From the IMG/VR virus record IMGVR_UViG_2663762841_000006, positions 1 to 42,406 of that record: DNA of 42,406 nt. The stretch is one strand, 5' to 3'. A program made the position numbers and the translations under genes. Positions 1,600-41,398 of this stretch are shown piece after piece. The notes beneath the pieces are model-generated. The model was given only the letters and a program-made list of their open reading frames with translations. It ran no database searches and was not told the origin of the DNA. The DNA is from a virus. Taxonomy: Duplodnaviria > Heunggongvirae > Uroviricota > Caudoviricetes. Position 1 is the stretch's first letter. Each line of letters opens with the position of its first letter.

Positions 1600-1722
1600 G
1601 AGTGCTATCTCCGAATAGGGAATCGAACCTGCAAATCAGGTAATAAAAAAACCGCATTGATGCGCCGATGGTAGGTCTGGATATCTTGATAAATGAAAAT
1701 GCCTCATCGAGTGTGAGGCGGG

Positions 1723-4491: not shown

Positions 4492-4971
4492 TTAAATTGC
4501 GTGAATAGCGTGACGAGGGAAGGGGAGAGTTACTGGTTCCTCGTCTGGGTAGATAGGTTTGTTATGTTTGTGCCACTCGACATGACATGACTTGCAGAGC
4601 CACATCACATCGGTTGGTTTGCTGTAGTCGCAGTGGTGCGCCTGTGGTTTACATTCTGATCCGCAGCACTCACATTGTGGTGGTCGGATTAGCTTACCGT
4701 CGCGCAAAAAATTACCCACAATGATGTGGGCTTTTCTTTTCCATGGGTTGCTCTGAATGAACCGCTTTTTGGCTGCGTTACACCGTTCTCTTCCGCGTTC
4801 CGATGATTGATATTCTCTCCTTGCTGATACTCGATGTGGCAATCCAGCGCGTTCTTTGTCGTATTCAGCCAGGCAAGCCCGGCAAGCGGCAGTTAATCCA
4901 TCTCTGGATGCTCTTCTGATTTGAAAGTCCCTTTCTTCCTTCTGTTGATGGCATCTTGAGCAGACTTTCAT
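4492..4971 (-). CDS. HNH endonuclease-like zinc-finger protein
   Basis: 159 aa; several CxxC pairs and HHCDYSKPTDVMWLCKSCHVEWH HNH-type motif. Confidence 0.6.
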   Translation of the reverse strand: MKVCSRCHQQKEERDFQIRRASRDGLTAACRACLAEYDKERAGLPHRVSARREYQSSERGRERCNAAKKRFIQSNPWKRKAHIIVGNFLRDGKLIRPPQCECCGSECKPQAHHCDYSKPTDVMWLCKSCHVEWHKHNKPIYPDEEPVTLPFPRHAIHAI

Positions 4972-4980
4972 ATTCAGCTC

Positions 4981-5454
4981 CTAGAACGGAATATCCGAAT
5001 CGTCGAAGTTCATAGGTGGTTCGCTGTGATTCCCCTGCTGCTGAGATTGCTGTCTTTGTTGCTGACCGTTATTTCGCTGATGTGAAGACTGTTCATTGCC
5101 TCCTTGTTTGCCACCAAGCATTTGCATGGTTCCACCAACGCCCACGATGACTTCGGTAGTGAACCGATCCTGTCCACTTTGATCCTGCCATTTTCTTGTC
5201 CGCAATTTGCCTTCAAGATAAACCTCAGAGCCTTTTCGCAGATATTCGCTGGCAATTTCTGCCAGTTTCCCGCTCATTACCACGCGGTGCCACTCCGTCT
5301 GCTCCTTTTGCTCTCCAGTTTGCTTATCACGCCATTGTTCTGACGTAGCAACTGTAAGGTTTGCAAATGCCGTTCCTGATGGTGAATATCTGATTTCTGG
5401 ATCATGCCCAAGGCGACCAATAATGATCACCTTATTTACGCCTCTGCTTGCCAT
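4981..5454 (-). CDS. ssb: single-stranded DNA-binding protein
   Basis: 157 aa; OB-fold N-terminus ([15 protein letters not shown]...), Gly/Gln-rich linker, acidic DDSDIPF C-terminal tail. Confidence 0.9.
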
Positions 5455-6162
5455 TTATGCCGCCTGTTTTAGTTCGTTAACTCTGATGTTCATTACCTGA
5501 ACGCATTTAGCCTGCGCATCCTCATTGCCAGCCATTAATTGCCAGTCATGCTGATAACGCTCGATGAGTTTTTTCTTGTCAGTTTCTTTCGATGCAAAAT
5601 CGCTGAAGTCTTTCAGGATTTGTTCGTAGTCAACCGATGGAGATTTCTGGTTGGTATTTTCTGGTGATGGTTTGTTATCTGATGCTGGGATTGCCCATCC
5701 CGGCAGCGATGGAGGGAGCCAGTAAAATCCTGTTCCATCCTTGAGTTTTGCCCTGTGCCATCCCTGCTTTTTATCGAGAGATGTTTGTGCAAAACCTTCC
5801 TCAAGGTTATACAGATACCGACCGATTCCCCACTGAACGGCAGCGCGCTTCATTGCACCGGAACGACCGCCTTTGACGGCTTCTACCTGCGTGTTTTCAG
5901 CAGCATCCCATTTGGTTACCCATTCGGAATCAATCTTGATTGATATGCCGCATTCAACTCCGCCGTTGTTGGGAATATCGCGGTATTCATTGCGCCATCC
6001 TGCTTTGCCGCAAACATCGTCCAGGCGCTTCATGATTGCCCGGTTCGTGACATAAGCCAGCACCATAGCCCACACCTTGCCATCGCGTGTTTTACCGCTT
6101 TGCTGTATTCGCCATTCGATATCTTCAGGGCTGAATGGCTCATCGAATTTGTTCAAATCCAT
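5455..6162 (-). CDS. single-strand annealing recombinase (Rad52/Sak-like family, inferred)
   Basis: 235 aa directly upstream of ssb in the recombination module; family recalled from memory, not verified by profile search. Confidence 0.5.
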   Translation of the reverse strand: MDLNKFDEPFSPEDIEWRIQQSGKTRDGKVWAMVLAYVTNRAIMKRLDDVCGKAGWRNEYRDIPNNGGVECGISIKIDSEWVTKWDAAENTQVEAVKGGRSGAMKRAAVQWGIGRYLYNLEEGFAQTSLDKKQGWHRAKLKDGTGFYWLPPSLPGWAIPASDNKPSPENTNQKSPSVDYEQILKDFSDFASKETDKKKLIERYQHDWQLMAGNEDAQAKCVQVMNIRVNELKQAA

Positions 6163-6261
6163 AATTCACCTCAGAATGGACACGGCCCAAGGAAATAACG
6201 CTGATTTAATACTTCGACTCGGGACAAATTAAGGCATACCCGCATTCCTTCGCGGTCACCA

Positions 6262-6420
6262 TTATGGCGATACCAGAGAGCTTTCTGCGTGTACATGCGT
6301 CTCTGTAACTTGCTCTCCTTCACTGTGGTTGCAAGTGACATGAATATCTCCTTCGTTACCGATTAATTCTTTCATCTGACGAATGAATTCTTCGTCTGAC
6401 CAGTTATCTGTAAAACTCAT
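6262..6420 (-). CDS. small hypothetical protein, 52 aa (below the ORF-track cutoff)
   Basis: Manual translation MSFTDNWSDEEFIRQMKELIGNEGDIH...; start overlaps the stop of the upstream Kil-like ORF (ATGA). Confidence 0.3.
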   Translation of the reverse strand: MSFTDNWSDEEFIRQMKELIGNEGDIHVTCNHSEGEQVTETHVHAESSLVSP

Positions 6421-6569
6421 TTCCTGCGATACCACGGAAGGTTGATAGCTGATTTCATAGCTTTATTTGCTTCAAGCCACATTTTTGAATCACCAATAAA
6501 TCTGGCTATTACTGCTTTGTTCTGTGCTGCACGAAGCATCTGGTGATTAATGGCTATTTCATTGCGCAT
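6417..6569 (-). CDS. Kil-like small protein (50 aa), putative host cell-division inhibitor
   Basis: Manual translation MRNEIAINHQMLRAAQNKAVIARFIGDSKMW...; IA(R/T)FIGD(S/E)KM(W/F) resembles lambda Kil as recalled; position between CIII-like gene and recombinase fits. Confidence 0.4.
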   Translation of the reverse strand: MRNEIAINHQMLRAAQNKAVIARFIGDSKMWLEANKAMKSAINLPWYRRK

Positions 6570-6688
6570 AACGCCTCCAGTTGTTTCTTTGCTGCTCTGA
6601 TTAATTGTTTAACTCGGCGTGATAATTCAGATTCGTGCGGGTAGAAAGCGGACATGACGCCGCTACCCGCGAGCTGAAAGTGCATCAT
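6554..6688 (-). CDS. CIII-like small protein (44 aa), putative FtsH inhibitor
   Basis: Manual translation MMHFQLAGSGVMSAFYPHESELSRRVKQLIRAAKKQLEAL; resembles lambda CIII central region (ESLLERITRKLR); AAGGAG RBS. Confidence 0.4.
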   Translation of the reverse strand: MMHFQLAGSGVMSAFYPHESELSRRVKQLIRAAKKQLEALCAMK

Positions 6689-6763
6689 GGGTAACTCCTT
6701 ATATTTGATTGCATAACGAAAACGCCTAGAGTGAAGCGTTATTGGTATGCGGTAAAGCCGCGC

Positions 6764-7075
6764 TTAGGCGGCTGATGTTTCTTCTTTCAGGCTTTCGAGA
6801 TATTTACGTGGGTCGTCGTAACATTGGCATTCGCTGTACCAATCCACCCAGCGATCAGTAAGCCCCATCTCTGATAAATCTTCATCGGTAAGGCTCTCAT
6901 CCCACATCTCAAGGCCGTTAGCATTGCAGTAATCAGGCTTGATGTTGTTGTCATACTGAAAGGCGTCATAATCAGCCAGTGCGTCCATCAGGCGAACACC
7001 CTCTTCAACACTTGCCACTTCTGCAATGAACGGTTTCATAGGTACTTGCGGGATATGCCAGACACGTAATTTCAT
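6764..7075 (-). CDS. highly acidic 103-aa early protein, function unknown
   Basis: GGAGG RBS before ATG at 7075 (track start 7129 rejected); about 23 Asp/Glu versus 9 Lys/Arg. Confidence 0.5.
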   Translation of the reverse strand: MKLRVWHIPQVPMKPFIAEVASVEEGVRLMDALADYDAFQYDNNIKPDYCNANGLEMWDESLTDEDLSEMGLTDRWVDWYSECQCYDDPRKYLESLKEETSAA

Positions 7076-7176
7076 ATTTCCTCCGTCAAAAAAATTGCCC
7101 TCACACTGGAGGGCAAAGAAGATTTCCAATAATCAGAACAAGTCGGCTCCTGTTTAGTTACGAGCGACATTGCTCC

Positions 7177-7204
7177 GTGTATTCACTCGTTGGAATGAAT
7201 ACAC
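7177..7204 (-). promoter_or_regulatory. perfect 9-bp inverted repeat (gtgtattca/tgaatacac) with 10-nt loop, no U-run
   Basis: Seen directly; lies just downstream of the 156-aa gene on the PL transcript; possible rho-dependent or N-sensitive terminator, processing site or protein-binding site. Confidence 0.3.
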
Positions 7205-7218
7205 AGTGCTTACTCGTA

Positions 7219-7689
7219 CTAATAAAATACCCAATTTTCTGTTTCTTGGTTGTGCCCAAAGTTATATTCAATATCTGGTGTTGATGTATCAATATTCTTC
7301 ATCCCATCAACAAGAGTTGATACAACAGCCAAATCTTGTTTGATTCTCATTAAATGGTATTTCTTCCGGCGCAATAAACTTTCAATGGCAAGTTTCTTCG
7401 TTGGGAATGCAAAAGATCTTTCTGCATTTTTTGCTACTTTCTTAATTGCATATCTATTTCTCCTTTGTTTCCATTCCTGTAACCACTGATTTGGTGCTGG
7501 TTTAAAATTAACAATCCAATGCGCAGGAACCAACCATGCATAATGCTCTGTCTGATGAAAAGCTATATATTGAAGTGCGAATATTTTTATCCCATCTTCT
7601 TCAACTGTCGCCTGGAATCTCCAGAAAACAGGCATTCCATCATGTTCAGTTTCTGATTCAGGAAAAGGTACGCTCCATGATTTTGTCAT
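7219..7689 (-). CDS. AT-rich moron protein, 156 aa, unknown function, immediately downstream of N
   Basis: GAGGTGA RBS; coding sequence is visibly AT-rich (A/T-ending codons throughout) relative to neighbours; basic region KQRRNRYAIKKVAK...LLRRKKYHLMRIK. Confidence 0.55.
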   Translation of the reverse strand: MTKSWSVPFPESETEHDGMPVFWRFQATVEEDGIKIFALQYIAFHQTEHYAWLVPAHWIVNFKPAPNQWLQEWKQRRNRYAIKKVAKNAERSFAFPTKKLAIESLLRRKKYHLMRIKQDLAVVSTLVDGMKNIDTSTPDIEYNFGHNQETENWVFY

Positions 7690-7697
7690 ATCTCACC

Positions 7698-7997
7698 TCA
7701 AATAAGTGGTTTGCTGCCTAATTTCATTTTCTGGCGACCAACACAAGTCACACCCATTTCACTGCGTGGCTTGCGGTAGTAAATACGGTTCTGTTTACGC
7801 TCGACTTCATCTGCCTTCTTGCAGCGAAGGCTTACGAGTGATGCTGCTTTGTCTGCTCTGACGCAACCAGAGAGCTTTAGCGCAATCTTTCGCGCCAGTC
7901 GCTGTTCTTGCATTGCCTGTTCACGTTGAGCCTGTCTGCGTGCTCTGCGGCGATTTCTGGCGTTATCGTCAGCCAGATATGTAATGACTACTGTCAT
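7698..7997 (-). CDS. N-like transcription antitermination protein
   Basis: 99 aa; arginine-rich motif NARNRRRARRQAQREQ near N-terminus; GGAGG RBS; first gene downstream of PL/nutL. Confidence 0.6.
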   Translation of the reverse strand: MTVVITYLADDNARNRRRARRQAQREQAMQEQRLARKIALKLSGCVRADKAASLVSLRCKKADEVERKQNRIYYRKPRSEMGVTCVGRQKMKLGSKPLI

Positions 7998-8192
7998 GTT
8001 GACCTCCGATGATTGACTTTGGTGATTGGATGGCCGGTGCTGAATTCCGGCTTACTGGTTAGAGCGCCCGCACTACCAGTGACGCTGTCTTGAGGCGCAG
8101 ATTGGTTACTGCTTGCCATGAGCGCTGTTTATACATTGGTCGAGCATCAGCCTGCTCATTCATCCAATCCCAAAGCCAACTACTCTTTGGTT

Positions 8193-17339: not shown

Positions 17340-17414
17340 GGGTCAGTCGTATAAAGGTCATTACGGAAGGCTGTTAACCTTCTTATCGTGGTTCGAGTCC
17401 ACGCTGCCCCTCCA
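17340..17414 (+). tRNA. tRNA with GUU anticodon (Asn-type), 75 nt, one U4-C69 mismatch in acceptor stem
   Basis: Manual cloverleaf fold: acceptor gggtcag/ctgcccc, anticodon stem gaagg/ccttc, loop cuGUUaa, T-arm cgtgg-ttcgagt-ccacg, encoded CCA. Confidence 0.6.
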
Positions 17415-17419
17415 AATAT

Positions 17420-17495
17420 GCTGGTTTAGCTCCAATGGTAGAGCAGTCGCCTTGTAAGCGAATGGGTAGCGGTTCAAGTCCGTTAACCAGCACCA
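17420..17495 (+). tRNA. tRNA with UGU anticodon (Thr-type), 76 nt
   Basis: Manual fold: acceptor gctggtt/aaccagc perfect, D-stem gctc/gagc, anticodon loop cuUGUaa, T-arm agcgg-ttcaagt-ccgtt, encoded CCA. Confidence 0.65.
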
Positions 17496-34017: not shown

Positions 34018-34338
34018 TTAGCGGTTGATGGTTGCTTTTTTCGGGTCATACCATCTCGGCCATTCTTTCAGGAATGGGAATGAGTCGGGTGCGTGGTTCT
34101 TTTTGTACGATTTAAGCAGCCTTAACCGCTCAATCGCACACTCATAAACCTCTTGTTGCCCTGTAGTCATTTCGGTCCATGAAAGGTGATCCATTGATAA
34201 GACAACGTTTTCAGCTTCTTTTATGAGGGCGTTTTTATTTCTCACCGCAGCAGCATGGCTGACAGAGCAATCCTGCCATATTCTTAAAAGCCAAATAGCT
34301 AAGCAGATGAAAAAAATGGTAGATAGCGATATATACAC
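34018..34338 (-). CDS. hypothetical membrane-anchored protein, about 106 aa (accessory island)
   Basis: Strong SD TAAGGAGG then GTG; N-terminal hydrophobic helix ISLSTIFFICLAIWLL; the 178-aa track extension is antisense to the next gene and reads as junk. Confidence 0.45.
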   Translation of the reverse strand: MYISLSTIFFICLAIWLLRIWQDCSVSHAAAVRNKNALIKEAENVVLSMDHLSWTEMTTGQQEVYECAIERLRLLKSYKKNHAPDSFPFLKEWPRWYDPKKATINR

Positions 34339-34368
34339 ACCAACCTCCTTAGTTTTACGCAGGATACC

Positions 34369-34734
34369 ATGAAAAAAGTTAACATTGGAAACGTACCAAA
34401 AATGCTCGTACCGCTCTTTGAGAGCGGTACAATTGTGTTTTGCAGAGACTTTCCAGAATGGCAACGCCTGCATCAAAAACTTGGCGTGGACGTGCAGGAC
34501 TCGGATGCCAACGGAGCGTCTCATACAATGAGCAGCGAGAATGGTGTTTTGCATGTGATAGGCGTGTTCAATGGCAAACTATCTACCATTGCCCATGAGT
34601 GCGCTCACATGGCATTCGATATCTGCTCAAGGGTCGGTGTTGATGTTGAACCAGGAAGAGCCAACGAGACTTACTGCTACTTAATGAGCAGGCTTGTTGA
34701 GTTCTGCGAGCGACATATCAAAAAGCCGGAGTGA
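34369..34734 (+). CDS. hypothetical protein with HExxH motif (HECAH), possible minimal zinc metallopeptidase
   Basis: 121 aa with protein-like composition; ends within a bidirectional terminator hairpin. Confidence 0.5.
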   Translation: MKKVNIGNVPKMLVPLFESGTIVFCRDFPEWQRLHQKLGVDVQDSDANGASHTMSSENGVLHVIGVFNGKLSTIAHECAHMAFDICSRVGVDVEPGRANETYCYLMSRLVEFCERHIKKPE

Positions 34735-34746
34735 CCCGGCTTGATT
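34720..34746. terminator. bidirectional hairpin terminator (agccgg-agtgac-ccggct) between convergent genes
   Basis: Flanked by an A-run on one side and a T-rich tract on the other. Confidence 0.5.
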
Positions 34747-34747
34747 A

Positions 34748-34972
34748 TTACTTTTTTTGGTATGTTAAGAATGGCAAGTCGCCAGTGTACCCCAAGCGGA
34801 AAAGCTCCAATTGCTTATCTCTTATGGATAAAAAATAATCGTTTCTTGCCTTTTTAAGCCACAACCAGCCGATCATCAAGATGAATAATATTGATATTAT
34901 TGGCATCGGGGAGATCAACACCACTCCGATGAATAATGACGCTAGCAGCACCGATAAAATAGCAGAAACCAT
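34748..34972 (-). CDS. small double-TM membrane protein, 74 aa
   Basis: Two hydrophobic segments (AILSVLLASLFIGVVLI and IISILFILMIGWLWL); GGGAGA RBS. Confidence 0.5.
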   Translation of the reverse strand: MVSAILSVLLASLFIGVVLISPMPIISILFILMIGWLWLKKARNDYFLSIRDKQLELFRLGYTGDLPFLTYQKK

Positions 34973-34997
34973 ACTAATCTCCCACTAAGGTAACAAT

Positions 34998-35183
34998 ATG
35001 ACCATAGAAGAACGCCTGAACAACATCGAGTTGAATCAAACCCTGCTTGACCAGCGACTTTCAGATCTTGAACTTAAAGATCTGGATGCGCAAATATCGG
35101 AAGCAGAAGCCAAGCTCTCCAGCCTAAACCACCGCAAGAAGCAAATCCGCAACAGAATTACTCAGGGACGCGGAAGCTGTTGA
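34998..35183 (+). CDS. small coiled-coil-like protein, 61 aa
   Basis: TAAGGT RBS; heptad-like Leu/Glu-rich sequence; 3' end overlaps the convergent 69-aa gene. Confidence 0.35.
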   Translation: MTIEERLNNIELNQTLLDQRLSDLELKDLDAQISEAEAKLSSLNHRKKQIRNRITQGRGSC

Positions 35184-35367
35184 GGTGGGATGCTAGGTCT
35201 CTATCGTTAAAATCAAGGCTGCTAATCATTTCATTGTAAATAGCGTTTTTATCTTCCATTGGCAGTCTTGAGTAAACCAGACACAGAGCATATTTCAGGG
35301 AGTTTAGCTCTTTCTCTAGCTCTTCCTTGCTTGATGTTTTTGACTTAATAAACTGTTTTTTATTCAT
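35158..35367 (-). CDS. hypothetical protein, 69 aa, translationally coupled to mnt
   Basis: Start overlaps the mnt stop (ATGA); no recognised motif. Confidence 0.45.
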   Translation of the reverse strand: MNKKQFIKSKTSSKEELEKELNSLKYALCLVYSRLPMEDKNAIYNEMISSLDFNDRDLASHLNSFRVPE

Positions 35368-35688: not shown

Positions 35689-35862
35689 ATGATAGTCAAG
35701 TCAGACGCACCAAAGTACCCTTTGCGCATCCCATTAGAGGTTAAGTTAGCAATCGAGAAGTCAGCGAAAGAAAATGGTCGCTCAATAAATACCGAGATGG
35801 TAATGCGGTTAGTGGATAGTTTAAGGCGGGATAGTTCTAAAGGTAATCTAGCAAAAAGTTGA
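35689..35862 (+). CDS. arc: Arc-like ribbon-helix-helix repressor
   Basis: 57 aa from ATG with GGAGG RBS; [18 protein letters not shown] resembles P22 Arc (ENGRSVNSEIYQRVMESF). Confidence 0.7.
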
Positions 35863-35924
35863 AGCCCCAACTGCGGGAACAGTCAGGGCTTCGGTATCAA
35901 CAAATCGGATTAGGAAATATTGAC

Positions 35925-36803
35925 ATGAAAAGTATAGCAAAGGCACAAAACGATTTCACCATCTTCAAATTCGGCGACAGTGAAATCCGCGTCATCAACA
36001 AATGCGGTGAGCCGTGGTTTGTAGCAAAAGATGTTTGTGATGCTTTAACCCTGACTAACTCACGCAAGGCGCTTACTGCACTTGATGACGATGAAAAGGG
36101 AGTAACTTTAAGTTACACCCTTGGTGGTGAGCAGAATCTAAGCATTGTTAGCGAATCAGGTATGTATACATTGGTTCTGCGCTGCCGCGATGCTGTCAAT
36201 AAAGGTTCGGTCCCGCACAAATTCCGCAAGTGGGTAACAGCAGAAGTTCTGCCTTCAATTCGCAAACATGGCGAGTATGTGAAAGGCAAGAAAACCACTG
36301 TTGAGGAAAGAACACCGCTACGCGATGCAGTAAACATGCTGGTAGGAAAGAAAGGACTTCGCTATGACGATGCATACAATATGGTTCATCAGCGTTTTGG
36401 TATTGACAGCATTGATGAACTTTCAATTGAACAAATCCCGCTGGCCGTAGAGTACATCCACAGGGTAGTGCTTGAAGGTGAATTCATCGGAAAACAAGAG
36501 AAGAAAACTGATGAGCTTTCTGCAAAAGAAGCAAACAGCCTTGTATGGTTATGGGATTATGCCAACCGCTCACAGGCATTATTCCGCGAACTGTATCCGG
36601 CGCTAAAACAAATTCAATCGAACTATTCCGGCAGATGCTACGACTACGGTCATGAGTTCTCGTATGTTATCGGAATGGCGAGAGACGTTTTAATCAATCA
36701 CACACGAGATGTTGATATTAATGAGCCAGACGGACCAACGAATCTTTCCGCATGGATGAGACTTAAGAATAAAGAATTACCTCCTTCAGTACATAACTAC
36801 TGA
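35925..36803 (+). CDS. ant: antirepressor Ant (BRO-N-type N-terminal domain)
   Basis: 292 aa from ATG 35925; follows arc; Bro-N-like N-terminus; terminator downstream. Confidence 0.7.
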
Positions 36804-36821
36804 CAGATAACCAACGCAACG

Positions 36822-36846
36822 ACCCAGCTTCGGCTGGGTTTTTTTA
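36822..36846 (+). terminator. rho-independent terminator after ant
   Basis: acccagc-ttcg-gctgggt followed by T7. Confidence 0.75.
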
Positions 36847-36913
36847 TGCCCAAAATTCACCGTAGCCATGCTGCGGGGATTCATTGTATCTGGAGCAAAT
36901 TAAATGACAGACA

Positions 36914-37408
36914 TTATCTAAAACAAGCAAACTCGCCATGATATTTTTCCCTGAATGCAATAGACATTAATTCGGCCAGCTCAATATCATCGGTATACCC
37001 AAGGCAAATAGACTTACCTTTTAGTTTGAACATAACTTTATATGTGTTTTTCCCTTTAAGAAGATGAACTCCTTTTATACCTGTATTGGATGATGAAACG
37101 CTGTTGGTTTTATTCTGACCTCTGGTTACTTCTCTTAGGTTTGAAATTCTATTGTCATTTTTAACCCCGTTAATATGGTCAATTAACCCTTTAGGCCAGC
37201 ATCCTTTCATATAAAACCAAGCAAGTCGGTGGCAAAGATATGATTTCCCATTAATCCGTATTGATAAGTAGTCGGCCTGTGAGTTCGTCTTAAATCCAGC
37301 AACCTTTCCGATACTGGAGCTACCAGAAGCTATCTTCCAAGTGAAGACGCCTGTTTCTGGGTTGTAGTTGAGTGAAGAGGTTAATTCTTTATGAGTAATC
37401 ATATTCAT
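36914..37408 (-). CDS. HNH homing-endonuclease-like protein (HNH_3 type)
   Basis: 164 aa; HRLAWFY...IDHINGVKNDNRISNLREVTRGQN motif; AT-rich; antisense to the flanking late genes. Confidence 0.65.
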   Translation of the reverse strand: MNMITHKELTSSLNYNPETGVFTWKIASGSSSIGKVAGFKTNSQADYLSIRINGKSYLCHRLAWFYMKGCWPKGLIDHINGVKNDNRISNLREVTRGQNKTNSVSSSNTGIKGVHLLKGKNTYKVMFKLKGKSICLGYTDDIELAELMSIAFREKYHGEFACFR

Positions 37409-37428
37409 TCCTTAAATAGAGATTCACT

Positions 37429-39876
37429 ATGTCAAATATTGTGCCAAATGTTATAATTTCAATGCCAAGTCAACTATTTACGTTAGCCAGAAAATTCCAG
37501 GCAGCAAGCAATGGCAAGATATTCATTGGTAAGATAGATTCCGATCCCACGCTCCCACAGAATCAAGTGCAGGTTTATGTGGAGAACGAAGACGGCTCTC
37601 ACATTCCCGTTTCGCAACCAATAATTATTAACGCTGCTGGCTACCCTGTATATAACGGACAGATTGCCAAATTCGTAACCGTGCAAGGGCATTCTATGGC
37701 TGTGTACGATGCATATGGATCACAGCAGTTCTATTTCCCTAATGTGCTGAAGTACGATCCAGATCAGTTTTCATATTTGCTGAAAAGTGATGATGGCTAT
37801 AAGTATATAGGAGAATGCAAAGATATATCTACATTGAGAACAATTGAACCAAGTTATGATGGACAGGTTATAAGACTGAGGGGATATTACTCTGACAGCT
37901 ATTCAGGAGGTGGAAGGTTTTTCCGTAGTGTTAATCCTGATGGATTGACAGATAACGGAGGAACGATAATTTTCACATCAGAAGGAAATGTATGGAAATC
38001 AGATGATATATATAATGTTATGCTTGAGGATTTCGGAGCTAAAGATGGTGCTGACAACACCGAAGCATTTCATAAAGCAATTAACTCACCAGCAAAAAAA
38101 ATCACAACAAATATAAAAGAGTTGATACTAACAAACAATATTGTAATTACACGCGGCGACCTGGCAATTGATATGCCTGATACGGAGATAATATGGAATG
38201 CTCCGGAAGGACATATTCCTGATAGAAGTGGATCTACAAATCCAAGTAACTATCGTTTTCCTGGCATTCTAGCATTTCGCGGCACTGCTGGAGATATAAT
38301 AGACTCTTTTACTCTAACAAATAGAATATCAAAAGGAGATACAACATATTGGTGTACGAACAACTCTCTTTTTGAGAATAGACAGTGGGTTATTATGTCA
38401 TCGGATGTTGGCGGCGGAACCGTAGGTAGAGAAATAAATGTAATGACACAAGTGCAGGGCAGTGGTGGAGCAATAACTCAATTGCGAGTTGATTATAAAA
38501 CAGGCTGGCATCTTGATGTCGGAAGGGTATTGACATATAGAAATGTAACCCCAATAGAAAATGTAAGAATTGCTTTTAAAGGCGTAAAATGGAATCAAAA
38601 CATAACAGATGCTTCAGGTGGTGGCGATGGATTTGCCAGTCAACAATCATGCGCACTTGTGTCCCTTGAATACGTAAATAACGCTGACATTTGTCTCGGG
38701 TATGGATTTAATCACCCTTACCCAATGGTTGTAACTGCCATGGTCAGGAATGTTTTTGTTCATGATACGGAAACAAATTTCCCAAGAGTTCCAGGGTCCG
38801 ATCATGTTGTTCAATTCAATAACGCATATGAATGCCACGCAAGAAGATTACGCAATATTTCAGGCAGGCACGTAGTTGATTTTAGTGGTTCAAGTTATTG
38901 CTCTGTAAGAGATTGCGGAGAAACAGGAACAAGAAATGGTGCATTTACTACGCACGGTATGTTTGAGCACAATTTGCGATTTGATAATAATTATGGTCTT
39001 TTAAGCATTGCAAACAGTGGTGAATATTATGGTGAGTCAGCAGATAATATAACTGTAACCCATCATTTCGGAGATTATTTAATTGCAACTTCAAAAGTTA
39101 CCAACCTTAACATATTGCATGCAATATTTACAAAAGGTGCAAGATTAAACAATGATGCCGTCACATTGATTGATGTTACTATTGGAGAAAACTCAACTGA
39201 TGCCGATAGAGGGCTTAGATTTACCCAAAGCTCTAATGTTTATGGGCGTGGGGCAAAAATATTCGGCTGTGACATTGTGTTAAACAAGCAAGCAGGGAAT
39301 GCTCTGCCTGATTCTCTTAACCAAAGGGTGAAAATCGAATCGACATATATCAGGAATTCAAACGCTTCATATTATGGTGGTAGTTGGATTGAACTAATTA
39401 ATTGTGATGTTTCAGGATCAGGTTCAAGTCTTGAGAATGTTGTTGCTGCAACGCGGTTTAGCATGCTGTCCGGATCACTATCTAATACTGGTTTTATTTT
39501 TCAAGGCCCATCAGAGCAAATCGTAAAAATACATGACGTTTCACAGTCTGGAACAGGAGCGTCAGGGCTTAATAGTCATTTTACTTTAAATAAAGATGAG
39601 GCAGGAAGTGGACCAATAACAATGTCATATAAAAATAATCAATGTATATTGAGTGGAGAAACATGCGCATTCAAAATAAATAATGCTTCAGGAGCATTCA
39701 GAGTAAACTCTACAGGGAATACGTTTCAAGGTGGGAAAATAGAGTTTCAGAAATCTATTACATCAGGTGGCAGTTACTTAAATCACACTGGAAACGTAGA
39801 GCGTGGCGTTAGTAGAGTCAACGAGCCAGAAAATACTCCATATATAGTAACAACAGGGAATATGATAATTCCCTGA
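37429..39876 (+). CDS. tailspike protein: conserved P22-type head-binding N-terminal domain fused to a divergent receptor-binding domain
   Basis: 815 aa; first ~115 residues match the P22/Sf6/HK620 tailspike N-terminus as recalled; remainder Gly/Ser/Asn-rich, consistent with a beta-helix. Confidence 0.85.
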
Positions 39877-40004
39877 TATAATATAAATCGCCAAGGATGG
39901 CTCATTCAAATAAGAATCTTTAGTAATCAGATTGTTAATTAAAGATGGTTTGTTGGTTTTTATGTTTATTAAAAAAGGTTATATCAACGCGCTGTTATTG
40001 TTCT

Positions 40005-41323: not shown

Positions 41324-41398
41324 TGGTGTCCCCTGCAGGAATCGAACCTGCAATTAGCCCTTAGGAGGGGCTCGTTATATCCATTTAACTAAGAGGAC
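41324..41398 (-). tRNA. argW: tRNA-Arg (anticodon CCU), intact; 3' end forms the prophage att core
   Basis: 75-nt cloverleaf read from the reverse complement, ending GGGGACACCA; anticodon loop cuCCUaa. Confidence 0.9.

What the first reader, a model, noticed from the sequence alone, without database searches (positions are those of the whole stretch)
36914..37408. HNH homing endonuclease inserted antisense between ant and the tailspike gene
An AT-rich HNH_3-type gene lies on the opposite strand between the ant terminator and the tailspike start, only 20 bp from the tailspike ATG. Homing endonucleases here could drive exchange of the adjacent tailspike receptor-binding module, or act in exclusion of related phages.
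Basis: partly seen in the sequence, partly recalled or inferred. Interest (0 to 1): 0.4.

Follow-up and report, generated by a model that had tools for sequence, protein, structure and literature searches.

The report
Homing endonuclease cassette in tailspike start
A small selfish nuclease gene, carried together with a rewritten copy of the first ~140 bases of the phage tailspike gene, has inserted at codon 5 of that gene in this P22-like prophage and has spread almost unchanged among related phages with many different tailspikes. It is a clean but fairly ordinary example of a homing endonuclease.

Summary
The ORF is real: 36914-37408, minus strand, 164 aa, probably starting at 37402 (162 aa). 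It is a free-standing HNH-AP2 homing endonuclease gene with intact catalytic residues. The gene is not simply intergenic. The first 13 nt of the ancestral tailspike gene (ATGACAGACATTA, 36904-36916) lie to its left and supply its stop codon. The present tailspike restarts at 37429 with a 5' tract (to about 37569) only 55-58% identical to insert-free alleles. The mobile unit is therefore 36917-~37569. In E. coli strain A2, which carries the same receptor-binding domain (RBD), these 653 nt replace 128 nt, with 97% and 99.4% identity on the two sides. Across 15 loci the cassette is about 99.4% identical, while the adjacent head-binding sequence is about 88% identical, left flanks are often unrelated, and all 13 RBDs that could be clustered differ. 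The window's own RBD occurs in 14 E. coli genomes without the HNH. A second HNH, 42% identical (the Kapi1 type), occupies the same site with the same pattern. Both types include decayed copies. The best reading is intronless homing into the conserved tailspike 5' end, with the diverged tract as the likely immunity determinant. Cleavage is untested. I found no sign that the element carries RBDs with it. New member of a known kind; moderate interest.

The parts
36804..36903 (+). Conserved ant-tailspike intergenic 'boundary' region: ant terminator 36821-36840 and the old tailspike Shine-Dalgarno GGAG at 36892-36895. It serves as the left homology arm of the cassette.
   Evidence: Identical or nearly identical in Kapi1, CUS-3 and N7. 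Terminator found. The equivalent 101 nt is annotated 'bsq1 boundary sequence' in CUS-3.
36904..36916 (+). Remnant of the ancestral tailspike start, ATGACAGACATTA (M T D I + 1 nt). It is now a 5-codon mini-ORF (36904-36921, MTDII*), and its TTA supplies the HNH stop codon on the opposite strand.
   Evidence: In insert-free phages this motif is the tailspike start. In the 13 of 15 W loci scanned for it, 12 have it exactly 525 nt upstream of the new start, and L017 has a Proteus-type variant at the same position.
36914..37408 (-). Free-standing HNH-AP2 homing endonuclease gene, 164 aa (probable start 37402, 162 aa). Catalytic D77-H78, N90 and N99 in 164-aa numbering.
   Evidence: Pfam HNH_3 4.3e-15. 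PHROG_99 1.3e-60. I-HmuI at 8e-4 by sequence and 1.5e-7 by profile. AP2/ERF domains at 6.3e-9 by profile. AF2 pLDDT 94.3, with Foldseek top hits I-HmuI and AP2 domains. Invariant H/DH/N/R/N columns in 85 homologues.
37409..37428 (.). 20-nt divergent spacer carrying both ribosome-binding sites: AAGGA for the HNH gene (37409-37413, minus strand) and a weak TAGAGA for the new tailspike start (37417-37422).
   Evidence: Read directly from the sequence. Near-invariant in all 15 W-type loci.
37429..37569 (+). Diverged 5' tract of the tailspike gene (codons 1-47, MSNIVPNV...) that travels with the HNH gene. It is the presumed cleavage-resistant (immune) version of the target.
   Evidence: 55-58% nt identity to insert-free E. 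coli alleles, against 90-96% just downstream. Median 99.3% identity among 15 W loci. Never found without the HNH in 5426 E. coli genomes. Closest natural relatives are Proteus-type tailspikes, 83-86% aa.
37435..37462 (-). Sigma-70-like promoter candidate for the HNH gene (TTGAAA-16-AATATT), embedded antisense in tailspike codons 3-12.
   Evidence: A 9/12 consensus match only. The geometry fits the HNH start, but the equivalent scan of the Kapi1 locus found nothing. This part is inference.
37570..37773 (+). Rest of the conserved head-binding domain. It is the right homology arm and contains the crossover: donor-like to nt 168 (37596), recipient-like from nt 175 (37603), with a donor-like patch at nt 240-255.
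   Evidence: Three-way comparison of the window, A2 and ET490. Polymorphism among W loci jumps at about +140.
37429..39876 (+). Tailspike gene, 815 aa: P22-type head-binding domain plus an RBD that also occurs without the HNH.
   Evidence: Pfam Head_binding 3.8e-64. RBD at least 99.4% identical in 14 E. coli genomes, none among the 6 that carry the HNH.

Best explanation
This is a free-standing HNH-AP2 (I-HmuI-like) homing endonuclease gene. It is packaged as a ~650-bp cassette (36917-~37569) together with a diverged copy of the first ~141 nt of the tailspike gene. The proposed mechanism has four steps. (1) When an HNH-carrying P22-like phage or prophage shares a cell with an HNH-free relative, the enzyme nicks or cuts the relative's DNA in or near the conserved 5' end of its tailspike gene. 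(2) The break is repaired from the HNH-carrying genome, using the conserved ant-tailspike boundary plus the first 13-15 nt of the tailspike on the left and the conserved head-binding sequence on the right. (3) This copies in the HNH gene and the diverged tract. (4) The tract keeps the tailspike functional with a new start codon and RBS, probably makes the carrier allele uncleavable, and may hold the HNH promoter. Shown here: protein family, intact active site, exact insertion anatomy, presence/absence polymorphism, much higher conservation of the cassette than of its flanks, purifying selection, decayed copies, and a patchy conversion tract. Inferred: cleavage activity and site, immunity conferred by the tract, the promoter, and that spread is nuclease-driven rather than by ordinary recombination.
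For: Family and active site. The Pfam AP2 family did not match this protein directly. Not an intron: no Rfam match, and the tailspike has its own complete in-frame N-terminus. Natural empty site: E. coli A2 has the same RBD. Identity is 97% up to 36916, then 653 nt replace 128 nt, then 99.4% from 37570 over 2481 nt. Discrete and recently spread: across 15 loci the cassette is median 99.3-99.4% identical, against 88% for tailspike nt 142-330. Left flanks are often unrelated (ant, P63C, or ejection-protein gene). The 13 RBDs that could be clustered are all different. The window's RBD occurs in 14 genomes, none with the HNH. Site specificity: the same junction, after nt 13-15 of the tailspike ORF, occurs with three different recipient-type remnants (ATGACAGACATTA, ATGTCAGATATTATC, ATGTCAGATATCAC) and with two HNH lineages only 42% identical. 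Selection: window versus L017 shows 30 synonymous and 7 non-synonymous codon differences. HEG life cycle: nonsense, frameshift and pseudogene copies exist. Conversion signature: donor-like to nt 168, recipient-like at 175-234, donor-like patch at 240-255, recipient-like from 261 onward. Compatibility with viability: Kapi1, which carries the sister cassette, is a described, isolated temperate phage. This pattern matches intronless homing of free-standing endonucleases as reviewed in PMC2988022. The HNH+AP2 HEG class is described in PMC10448857.
Against: There is no biochemical or genetic test, so neither cleavage nor its site is known. The element is rare: 6 (W type) and about 15 (Kapi1 type) of 5426 complete E. 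coli genomes, although 1435 have matching flanks. That is low for an efficient drive. The promoter evidence is a single 9/12 match, and no site passed the scan at the Kapi1 locus. The tract resembles natural Proteus-type tailspike starts, so its divergence may be inherited from the ancestral host lineage rather than selected for immunity. Some I-HmuI relatives only nick DNA, and some also cut their own carrier allele. Shared polymorphisms circulating in the population could imitate the 'patchy conversion tract'.
Confidence: 0.72

Rival explanations
1. Passive mosaic module. The HNH gene and the tract are one more exchangeable segment that spreads by ordinary homologous recombination at the conserved boundary sequences of P22-like phages. 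The nuclease plays no part in its own spread, being inactive or irrelevant.
For: P22-like phages are highly mosaic and the left arm coincides with an annotated 'boundary sequence'. The cassette is rare. Several copies are decayed. No activity data exist.
Against: The catalytic residues are intact and invariant, and the gene is under purifying selection (30 synonymous versus 7 non-synonymous codon differences). Cassette identity of about 99.4% next to flanks at 88% or unrelated means repeated, recent, very local transfers. The left homology available between some contexts is only about 15-30 nt, which is too short for efficient general recombination without a nearby break. Two diverged HNH lineages hold the same site.
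Confidence: 0.15
2. Prophage-encoded exclusion weapon. The main selected role is to cut the tailspike gene of superinfecting or co-induced P22-like relatives, that is, interference competition or superinfection exclusion. Homing is a by-product.
For: The gene has its own orientation and a possible own promoter, independent of the late operon. It sits beside the immI/ant accessory region. The target would be an essential, conserved gene. It gives a weak PADLOC 'HEase' hit (7.8e-7). Marker exclusion by phage HEGs is established (PMC2988022), and interference with co-infecting phages is discussed in recent literature.
Against: Expression in lysogens is unknown, and the RNA-seq supplement for the Kapi1 lysogen was not available. 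The rarity and the decayed copies argue against strong host- or phage-level benefit. This is not exclusive of the best explanation, since it shares the same cleavage step.
Confidence: 0.1
3. Domesticated DNA-binding regulator. The AP2 domain protein binds near the tailspike start and regulates tailspike or late transcription, and nuclease activity is no longer used.
For: It has an AP2-type DNA-binding domain. It is antisense to, and overlaps, the leader of the tailspike message.
Against: The full HNH catalytic set is conserved. About 98% of related prophages do without it. Decayed copies exist in otherwise intact loci.
Confidence: 0.03

Closest known systems
I-HmuI (Bacillus phage SPO1 intron-encoded HNH endonuclease, PDB 1u3e)
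   Same: Best solved relative by sequence (8e-4), by profile (1.5e-7) and by predicted fold (Foldseek rank 1, probability 1.0). It shares the N-terminal beta-hairpin region and the HNH_3 core, with D-H, N and N aligned.
   Different: I-HmuI is intron-encoded, whereas this gene is free-standing with no Rfam intron match. The C-terminal DNA-binding module is AP2-like here rather than that of I-HmuI. Only about 20% identical.
HNH-AP2 homing endonucleases of phages, cyanobacteria and protists (Magnani et al. 2004; 'IPA-HNH' relatives in ICP1, PMC10448857)
   Same: N-terminal HNH plus C-terminal AP2 architecture. About 40% of the listed database homologues carry precomputed Pfam AP2+HNH_3. The family profile hits plant AP2/ERF structures.
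   Different: For this particular protein, Pfam AP2 is not detected directly. The ICP1 IPA-HNH proteins have HNH domains too diverged for the HNH_3 profile, whereas this one is a canonical HNH_3.
Free-standing homing endonucleases of T4-like phages (seg and mob genes; intronless homing, marker exclusion, co-conversion)
   Same: A stand-alone nuclease gene next to a conserved essential gene. Presence/absence polymorphism between relatives. Replacement of flanking recipient sequence by diverged donor sequence (PMC2988022).
   Different: This is a temperate P22-like prophage, not a lytic T-even phage. The insertion point lies inside the target ORF at codon 5 and is tolerated because the cassette supplies a new start and N-terminus. 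The gene is antisense to the operon it sits in.
Escherichia phage vB_EcoP_Kapi1 gene Kapi1_066 ('HNH endonuclease', MT813197)
   Same: Same site, same orientation, same stop-codon overlap with the old tailspike start, and its own diverged tailspike 5' tract. It is likewise found next to many RBDs.
   Different: Only 42% protein identity. The diverged tract is shorter, at about 70 nt. The Kapi1 papers held do not mention the gene.

Membership tests
HNH / His-Me finger endonuclease, HNH_3 (I-HmuI-like) subgroup | Match to the family profile above the curated threshold | tested here: met
   Pfam PF13392 at 55.5 bits against a cut-off of 24.8, E=4.3e-15. PHROG_99 at 1.3e-60.
HNH / His-Me finger endonuclease, HNH_3 (I-HmuI-like) subgroup | Catalytic and metal-binding residues (I-HmuI D74, H75, N87, N96; their roles are taken from established knowledge of the I-HmuI structure) | tested here: met
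   D77, H78, N90 and N99 align to them (numbering checked). D75, H76, N88, R90 and N100 in 162-aa numbering are invariant in 85 homologues, and N97 (= N99, which aligns to I-HmuI N96) is more than 90% conserved.
HNH / His-Me finger endonuclease, HNH_3 (I-HmuI-like) subgroup | Beta-beta-alpha-metal fold | tested here: met
   AF2 model with pLDDT 94.3 has strands 73-76 and 89-92 followed by helix 94-100. The top Foldseek PDB hit is I-HmuI at probability 1.00. This rests on a predicted, not solved, structure.
HNH / His-Me finger endonuclease, HNH_3 (I-HmuI-like) subgroup | Metal-dependent DNA nicking or cleavage | not testable with these tools
   Needs purified protein.
HNH-AP2 homing endonucleases | C-terminal AP2-type DNA-binding domain | tested here: met
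   The family profile, with the window protein as first sequence, hits WRI1 at 6.3e-9, TEM1 at 8.6e-6 and AtERF1 at 0.012 over residues 108-161. The model's C-terminus superposes on the AtERF1 and TEM1 AP2 domains (rmsd 1.3-1.7 A, probability 0.99-1.0). Caveat: Pfam AP2 does not hit this protein directly. It hits the Kapi1 homologue at 3.6e-6, below the gathering score.
Free-standing homing endonuclease gene (intronless homing) | Not inside an intron or intein | tested here: met
   No Rfam family in 36700-37700 at E<=1. It is a separate antisense ORF, and the tailspike has a complete in-frame N-terminus of its own.
Free-standing homing endonuclease gene (intronless homing) | Presence/absence polymorphism at a fixed site between otherwise homologous genomes | tested here: met
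   Empty sites are seen in CUS-3, N7, A2 and CUVET21-147. The junction is at the same place in all 23 occupied loci examined.
Free-standing homing endonuclease gene (intronless homing) | Sequence differences in the carrier's copy of the target region (basis of self-immunity) | tested here: inconclusive
   The linked tract is 55-58% identical to empty alleles and is never seen without the HNH. Because the cleavage site is unknown, immunity itself is not shown.
Free-standing homing endonuclease gene (intronless homing) | Co-conversion of flanking markers | tested here: inconclusive
   The switch from donor-like to recipient-like sequence at tailspike nt 168-175, with a donor-like patch at 240-255, is consistent with co-conversion. 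It rests on a single three-way comparison.
Free-standing homing endonuclease gene (intronless homing) | Site-specific cleavage of the HEG-less allele and nuclease-dependent over-inheritance in crosses | not testable with these tools
   Requires in vitro cleavage assays and mixed-infection experiments.

The most novel reading that the evidence does not exclude
Two diverged HNH-AP2 endonucleases form a family of gene drives specialised on the conserved first codons of the P22-type tailspike gene. Expressed from a promoter hidden in the diverged tailspike codons, a prophage copy cuts the tailspike gene of incoming or co-induced relatives. This both excludes them and converts survivors. The repeated breaks at the head-binding/RBD gene would make this locus a recombination hotspot that contributes to the extreme RBD mosaicism of P22-like phages.
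Probability: 0.2. Interest if true: 0.6.

Novelty: new member of a known kind. Interest (0 to 1): 0.4.

Why it matters
It is a clearly delimited natural example of intronless homing in temperate P22-like phages. Empty and filled alleles of the same tailspike are available (E. coli A2 or CUVET21-147 versus this window). A second endonuclease lineage occupies the same site, and at least one cultivable phage (Kapi1) carries the sister cassette. Site, immunity and drive are therefore directly testable. It also explains an odd annotation pattern: an antisense 'HNH endonuclease' 20-26 nt from the tailspike start, and tailspikes with MSNIVPNV or MPEQLYNV N-termini instead of MTDITANV. Finally, it shows that, in this sample, the element moves independently of host-range determinants. 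That matters when reading tailspike mosaicism or engineering P22-like tailspikes. It does not reveal a new kind of system.

Tried and rejected
1. Group I intron or other structured RNA around the gene: no Rfam match at E<=1, so rejected.
2. Direct Pfam AP2 hit: absent for this protein. AP2 was established only through the family profile and the predicted fold.
3. Defence-system membership: PADLOC gave only a generic weak 'HEase' match.
4. Scan of species-representative genomes for close relatives: nothing above 48% identity, so it gave no host information for L017.
5. Expression of the sister gene in the Kapi1 lysogen: the RNA-seq paper's supplements are not held and the text does not mention the gene.
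6. Literature on a homing endonuclease at the P22-like tailspike start: none found. The Casjens & Grose 2016 review is not held.
7. Conserved HNH promoter: there is a 9/12 site in the window, but no site passed the scan at the Kapi1 locus, so the promoter remains conjecture.
8. HNH hitch-hiking with an RBD: rejected. All 13 W-type and 7 Kapi1-type RBDs that could be clustered differ, and the window's RBD occurs without the HNH.
9. The tract as a de novo recoded sequence: weakened, because natural Proteus-type tailspikes are 83-86% identical in protein over this stretch.

Full report
**1. Observation**

The window holds an ORF at 36914..37408 on the minus strand, 164 aa. It lies 20 nt from the ATG of an 815-aa tailspike gene (37429..39876; Pfam Head_binding, 3.8e-64). 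It is downstream of ant (35859..36803; Bro-N plus P22_AR_C) and of ant's terminator at 36821-36840.

The ORF matches Pfam HNH_3 at 4.3e-15, which is 55.5 bits against a cut-off of 24.8. It matches PHROG_99 'HNH endonuclease' at 1.3e-60. Its GC content is 37.2%, against 44.1% for ant and 46.6% for the window.

The AAGGA Shine-Dalgarno element (37409-37413, minus strand) touches the first ATG and lies 6 nt from the second. The likely start is therefore 37402 (162 aa), as PGAP annotates in other genomes.

The surroundings are a complete P22-like (Lederbergvirus-type) prophage next to tRNA-Arg(cct) and yfdC.

**2. What the protein is**

The closest solved relative is the SPO1 intron endonuclease I-HmuI: 8e-4 with the single sequence and 1.5e-7 with a profile of 85 homologues.

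In that alignment D77-H78, N90 and N99 (164-aa numbering, checked) fall on I-HmuI D74-H75, N87 and N96. These are the general base and the metal and structural residues, according to established knowledge of the I-HmuI structure. In the 85-sequence alignment, H58, D75, H76, N88, R90 and N100 (162-aa numbering) are invariant. N97, which corresponds to N99, is more than 90% conserved.

The same profile matches plant AP2/ERF DNA-binding domains over residues 108-161: WRI1 at 6.3e-9, TEM1 at 8.6e-6 and AtERF1 at 0.012.

An AlphaFold2 model (pLDDT 94.3) finds I-HmuI first in the PDB, followed by AP2 domains. For AtERF1 the fit is rmsd 1.7 A over 55 columns with a target-normalised TM-score of 0.70.

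Pfam AP2 does not hit this protein directly. It hits the Kapi1 homologue at 3.6e-6, below the gathering score, and is precomputed for about 40% of the listed database homologues.

The protein is therefore an HNH-AP2 endonuclease, a class already described as homing endonucleases in phages (PMC10448857, citing Magnani et al. 2004). No Rfam family, and so no group I intron, is detectable in 36700-37700. The gene is free-standing.

**3.

In insert-free relatives (CUS-3, N7, E. coli A2, CUVET21-147) the tailspike gene starts ATGACAGACATTAC..., encoding MTDITANV.

In the window the same 13 nt, with their GGAG Shine-Dalgarno, lie at 36904-36916, to the left of the HNH gene. The TTA within them is the HNH stop codon on the other strand.

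The tailspike now restarts 525 nt further on, at 37429, as MSNIVPNV. Its first ~141 nt are only 55-58% identical to the insert-free alleles. Identity then jumps to 90-96%.

E. coli A2 carries the same receptor-binding domain (RBD). Against A2:
- Identity is 97% up to 36916.
- 653 nt (36917-37569) then stand in place of 128 nt.
- Identity is 99.4% from 37570 to beyond the integrase start, over 2481 nt.

The unit that differs is therefore HNH gene + 20-nt spacer + diverged tailspike 5' tract. It is inserted after nt 13 of the old ORF, not in the intergenic region.

**4. Evidence that the unit is mobile**

The cassette occurs in 6 of 5426 complete E. coli genomes. It also occurs in 9 IMG/VR contigs at 96% or higher protein identity. 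The next relatives in IMG/VR drop to 47%. The 90%-identity cluster in the large protein collection holds 74 member sequences.

Identities among the 15 W-type loci:

| Region | Median identity |
|---|---|
| HNH gene | 99.4% |
| Diverged tract | 99.3% |
| Tailspike nt 142-330 | 88% |
| Sequence left of the old ATG | often unrelated |

Left contexts include ant, a P63C-domain gene, or directly the ejection-protein gene. The 13 RBDs that could be clustered fall into 13 different clusters. L017 has yet another tailspike.

Conversely, the window's RBD occurs at 99.4% or higher identity in 14 E. coli genomes. None of them is among the six that carry the HNH.

A three-way comparison used the window, A2 (same RBD, no HNH) and ET490 (identical cassette, different RBD). 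The window follows ET490 up to tailspike nt 168, A2 at nt 175-234, ET490 again at nt 240-255, and A2 from nt 261 on. This looks like a short, patchy conversion tract. The cassette was brought into a resident tailspike gene. The RBD was not brought in behind the cassette.

**5. Site specificity and a sister lineage**

Phage Kapi1 (MT813197) and about 15 E. coli genomes carry a different HNH, 42% identical in protein. It has the same orientation at the same junction, again using the TTA of the old start as its stop codon. It has its own diverged tract of about 70 nt, encoding MPEQLYNV.

Eight Kapi1-type loci were examined, and seven could be anchored for comparison. These repeat the pattern: cassette about 99.4% identical, nt 142-330 about 92%, and seven different RBDs. 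One of those RBDs is the CUS-3 endosialidase, which in CUS-3 itself has no HNH.

The remnant left of the cassette varies with the recipient lineage:
- ATGACAGACATTA(C) in most loci.
- ATGTCAGATATCAC in L105 and L108.
- ATGTCAGATATTATC in L017, whose left flank is homologous to Proteus phage Brookers right up to that point.

That makes three remnant types and two nuclease lineages, with one junction position (nt 13-15). In some pairs of contexts the shared homology on the left is only about 15-30 nt. This is easier to explain if a break is made at or near that position.

Over tailspike nt 37-60 the two tracts resemble each other more than either resembles the empty allele (my count from the alignment is about 20/24 against 13/24). 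This suggests common ancestry of the two cassettes.

The W tract is closest to natural Proteus-type tailspike starts: 83-86% in protein and about 72% in DNA. Those phages lack the HNH. The cassette probably arose in such a lineage.

**6. Selection and decay**

The window and the diverged copy L017 differ at 40 of 495 nt. Of the differing codons, 30 are synonymous and 7 are not. This indicates purifying selection on the protein.

Fourteen of 15 W copies are intact, and one has a nonsense codon, E143*. Among the Kapi1 type, one copy is annotated as a pseudogene and one is frameshifted. A mix of intact, recently spread copies and decaying ones is what the homing-endonuclease life cycle predicts.

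**7. Mechanism proposed**

The pattern fits intronless homing as defined for the T4 seg and mob genes (PMC2988022). The nuclease would cut the HEG-less allele, and repair from the carrier would copy in the gene together with diverged flanking sequence.

Specific to this case:
- The insertion lies inside the target ORF. It is tolerated because the cassette provides a new RBS (a weak TAGAGA), a new start codon and a new N-terminus.
- A 5-codon remnant ORF (MTDII*) is left behind the old Shine-Dalgarno.
- The gene is antisense to the late transcript that must read through it to reach the tailspike.
- A candidate sigma-70 promoter for the HNH (TTGAAA-16-AATATT, 37462-37435, minus strand) lies inside the diverged tailspike codons.

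The promoter is weak evidence: it is a 9/12 match, and no site passed the scan at the Kapi1 locus. Cleavage, the cleavage site and immunity of the tract are all inferred.

**8. Rivals**

- Passive spread by ordinary recombination at boundary sequences is possible. It fits poorly with the intact and constrained active site, the very local and repeated transfers, and the short left homology.
- A role as an exclusion weapon of the prophage is compatible with everything seen and shares the cleavage step. It needs expression data that I could not obtain.
- A purely regulatory AP2 protein is unlikely, given the conserved catalytic residues and the dispensability of the gene.

**9. Comparison, novelty and score**

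The protein is a member of the HNH_3/I-HmuI-like group and has the HNH-AP2 architecture. The element behaves like a free-standing homing endonuclease gene. The activity-based criteria for membership could not be tested.

I found no paper describing a homing endonuclease at the tailspike start of P22-like phages. The Kapi1 papers held do not mention gene 066. The library is incomplete, however.

This is a new, well-delimited member of a known kind. Its useful features are empty and filled isogenic alleles, two lineages at one site, and a cultivable carrier. Interest: 0.4.

Noticed in passing
window 17340-17495: The prophage carries two adjacent tRNA genes, tRNA-Asn(gtt) and tRNA-Thr(tgt), in the region between the early and lysis/late genes.
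   Followed up: no
window 1619-1634 and 41338-41353: A 16-nt direct repeat, GGAATCGAACCTGCAA. The right copy lies inside tRNA-Arg(cct) at 41324-41398. These are probably the att core copies, delimiting a ~39.7-kb prophage beside yfdC.
   Followed up: partly
window 36904-36921: The old tailspike Shine-Dalgarno and start now head a 5-codon ORF (MTDII*). It would still be translated on the late transcript, just before 500 nt of antisense HNH sequence. Any effect on tailspike expression is unknown.
   Followed up: no
window 34018-35367: Small accessory ORFs lie between the ejection-protein gene and the mnt/arc/ant immunity region: 34018-34554 (-), 34998-35183 (+) and 35158-35367 (-). They match only PHROGs of unknown function. 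This slot differs in nearly every related prophage examined, holding for example a ClpP-like protease, a P63C protein or lipoproteins.
   Followed up: no
L006 (E. coli ET734) 4730-8161: In this W-type locus the tailspike gene is truncated after the head-binding domain by IS1 and IS3 insertions, and the integrase has an internal stop. The prophage is decaying, yet its HNH ORF is still intact.
   Followed up: no
L017 (IMGVR_UViG_2563367181_000001): A 92%-identical variant of the cassette sits in a backbone related to Proteus phage Brookers rather than to E. coli P22-like phages. This suggests cross-genus spread or a Proteus/Morganellaceae-type origin. The host was not identified.
   Followed up: partly
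window 39877-40004: Only 128 nt separate the tailspike stop from the integrase gene. No O-antigen-modifying gene (acyltransferase, gtr or polymerase) is present there, whereas several related prophages carry one in this position.
   Followed up: no
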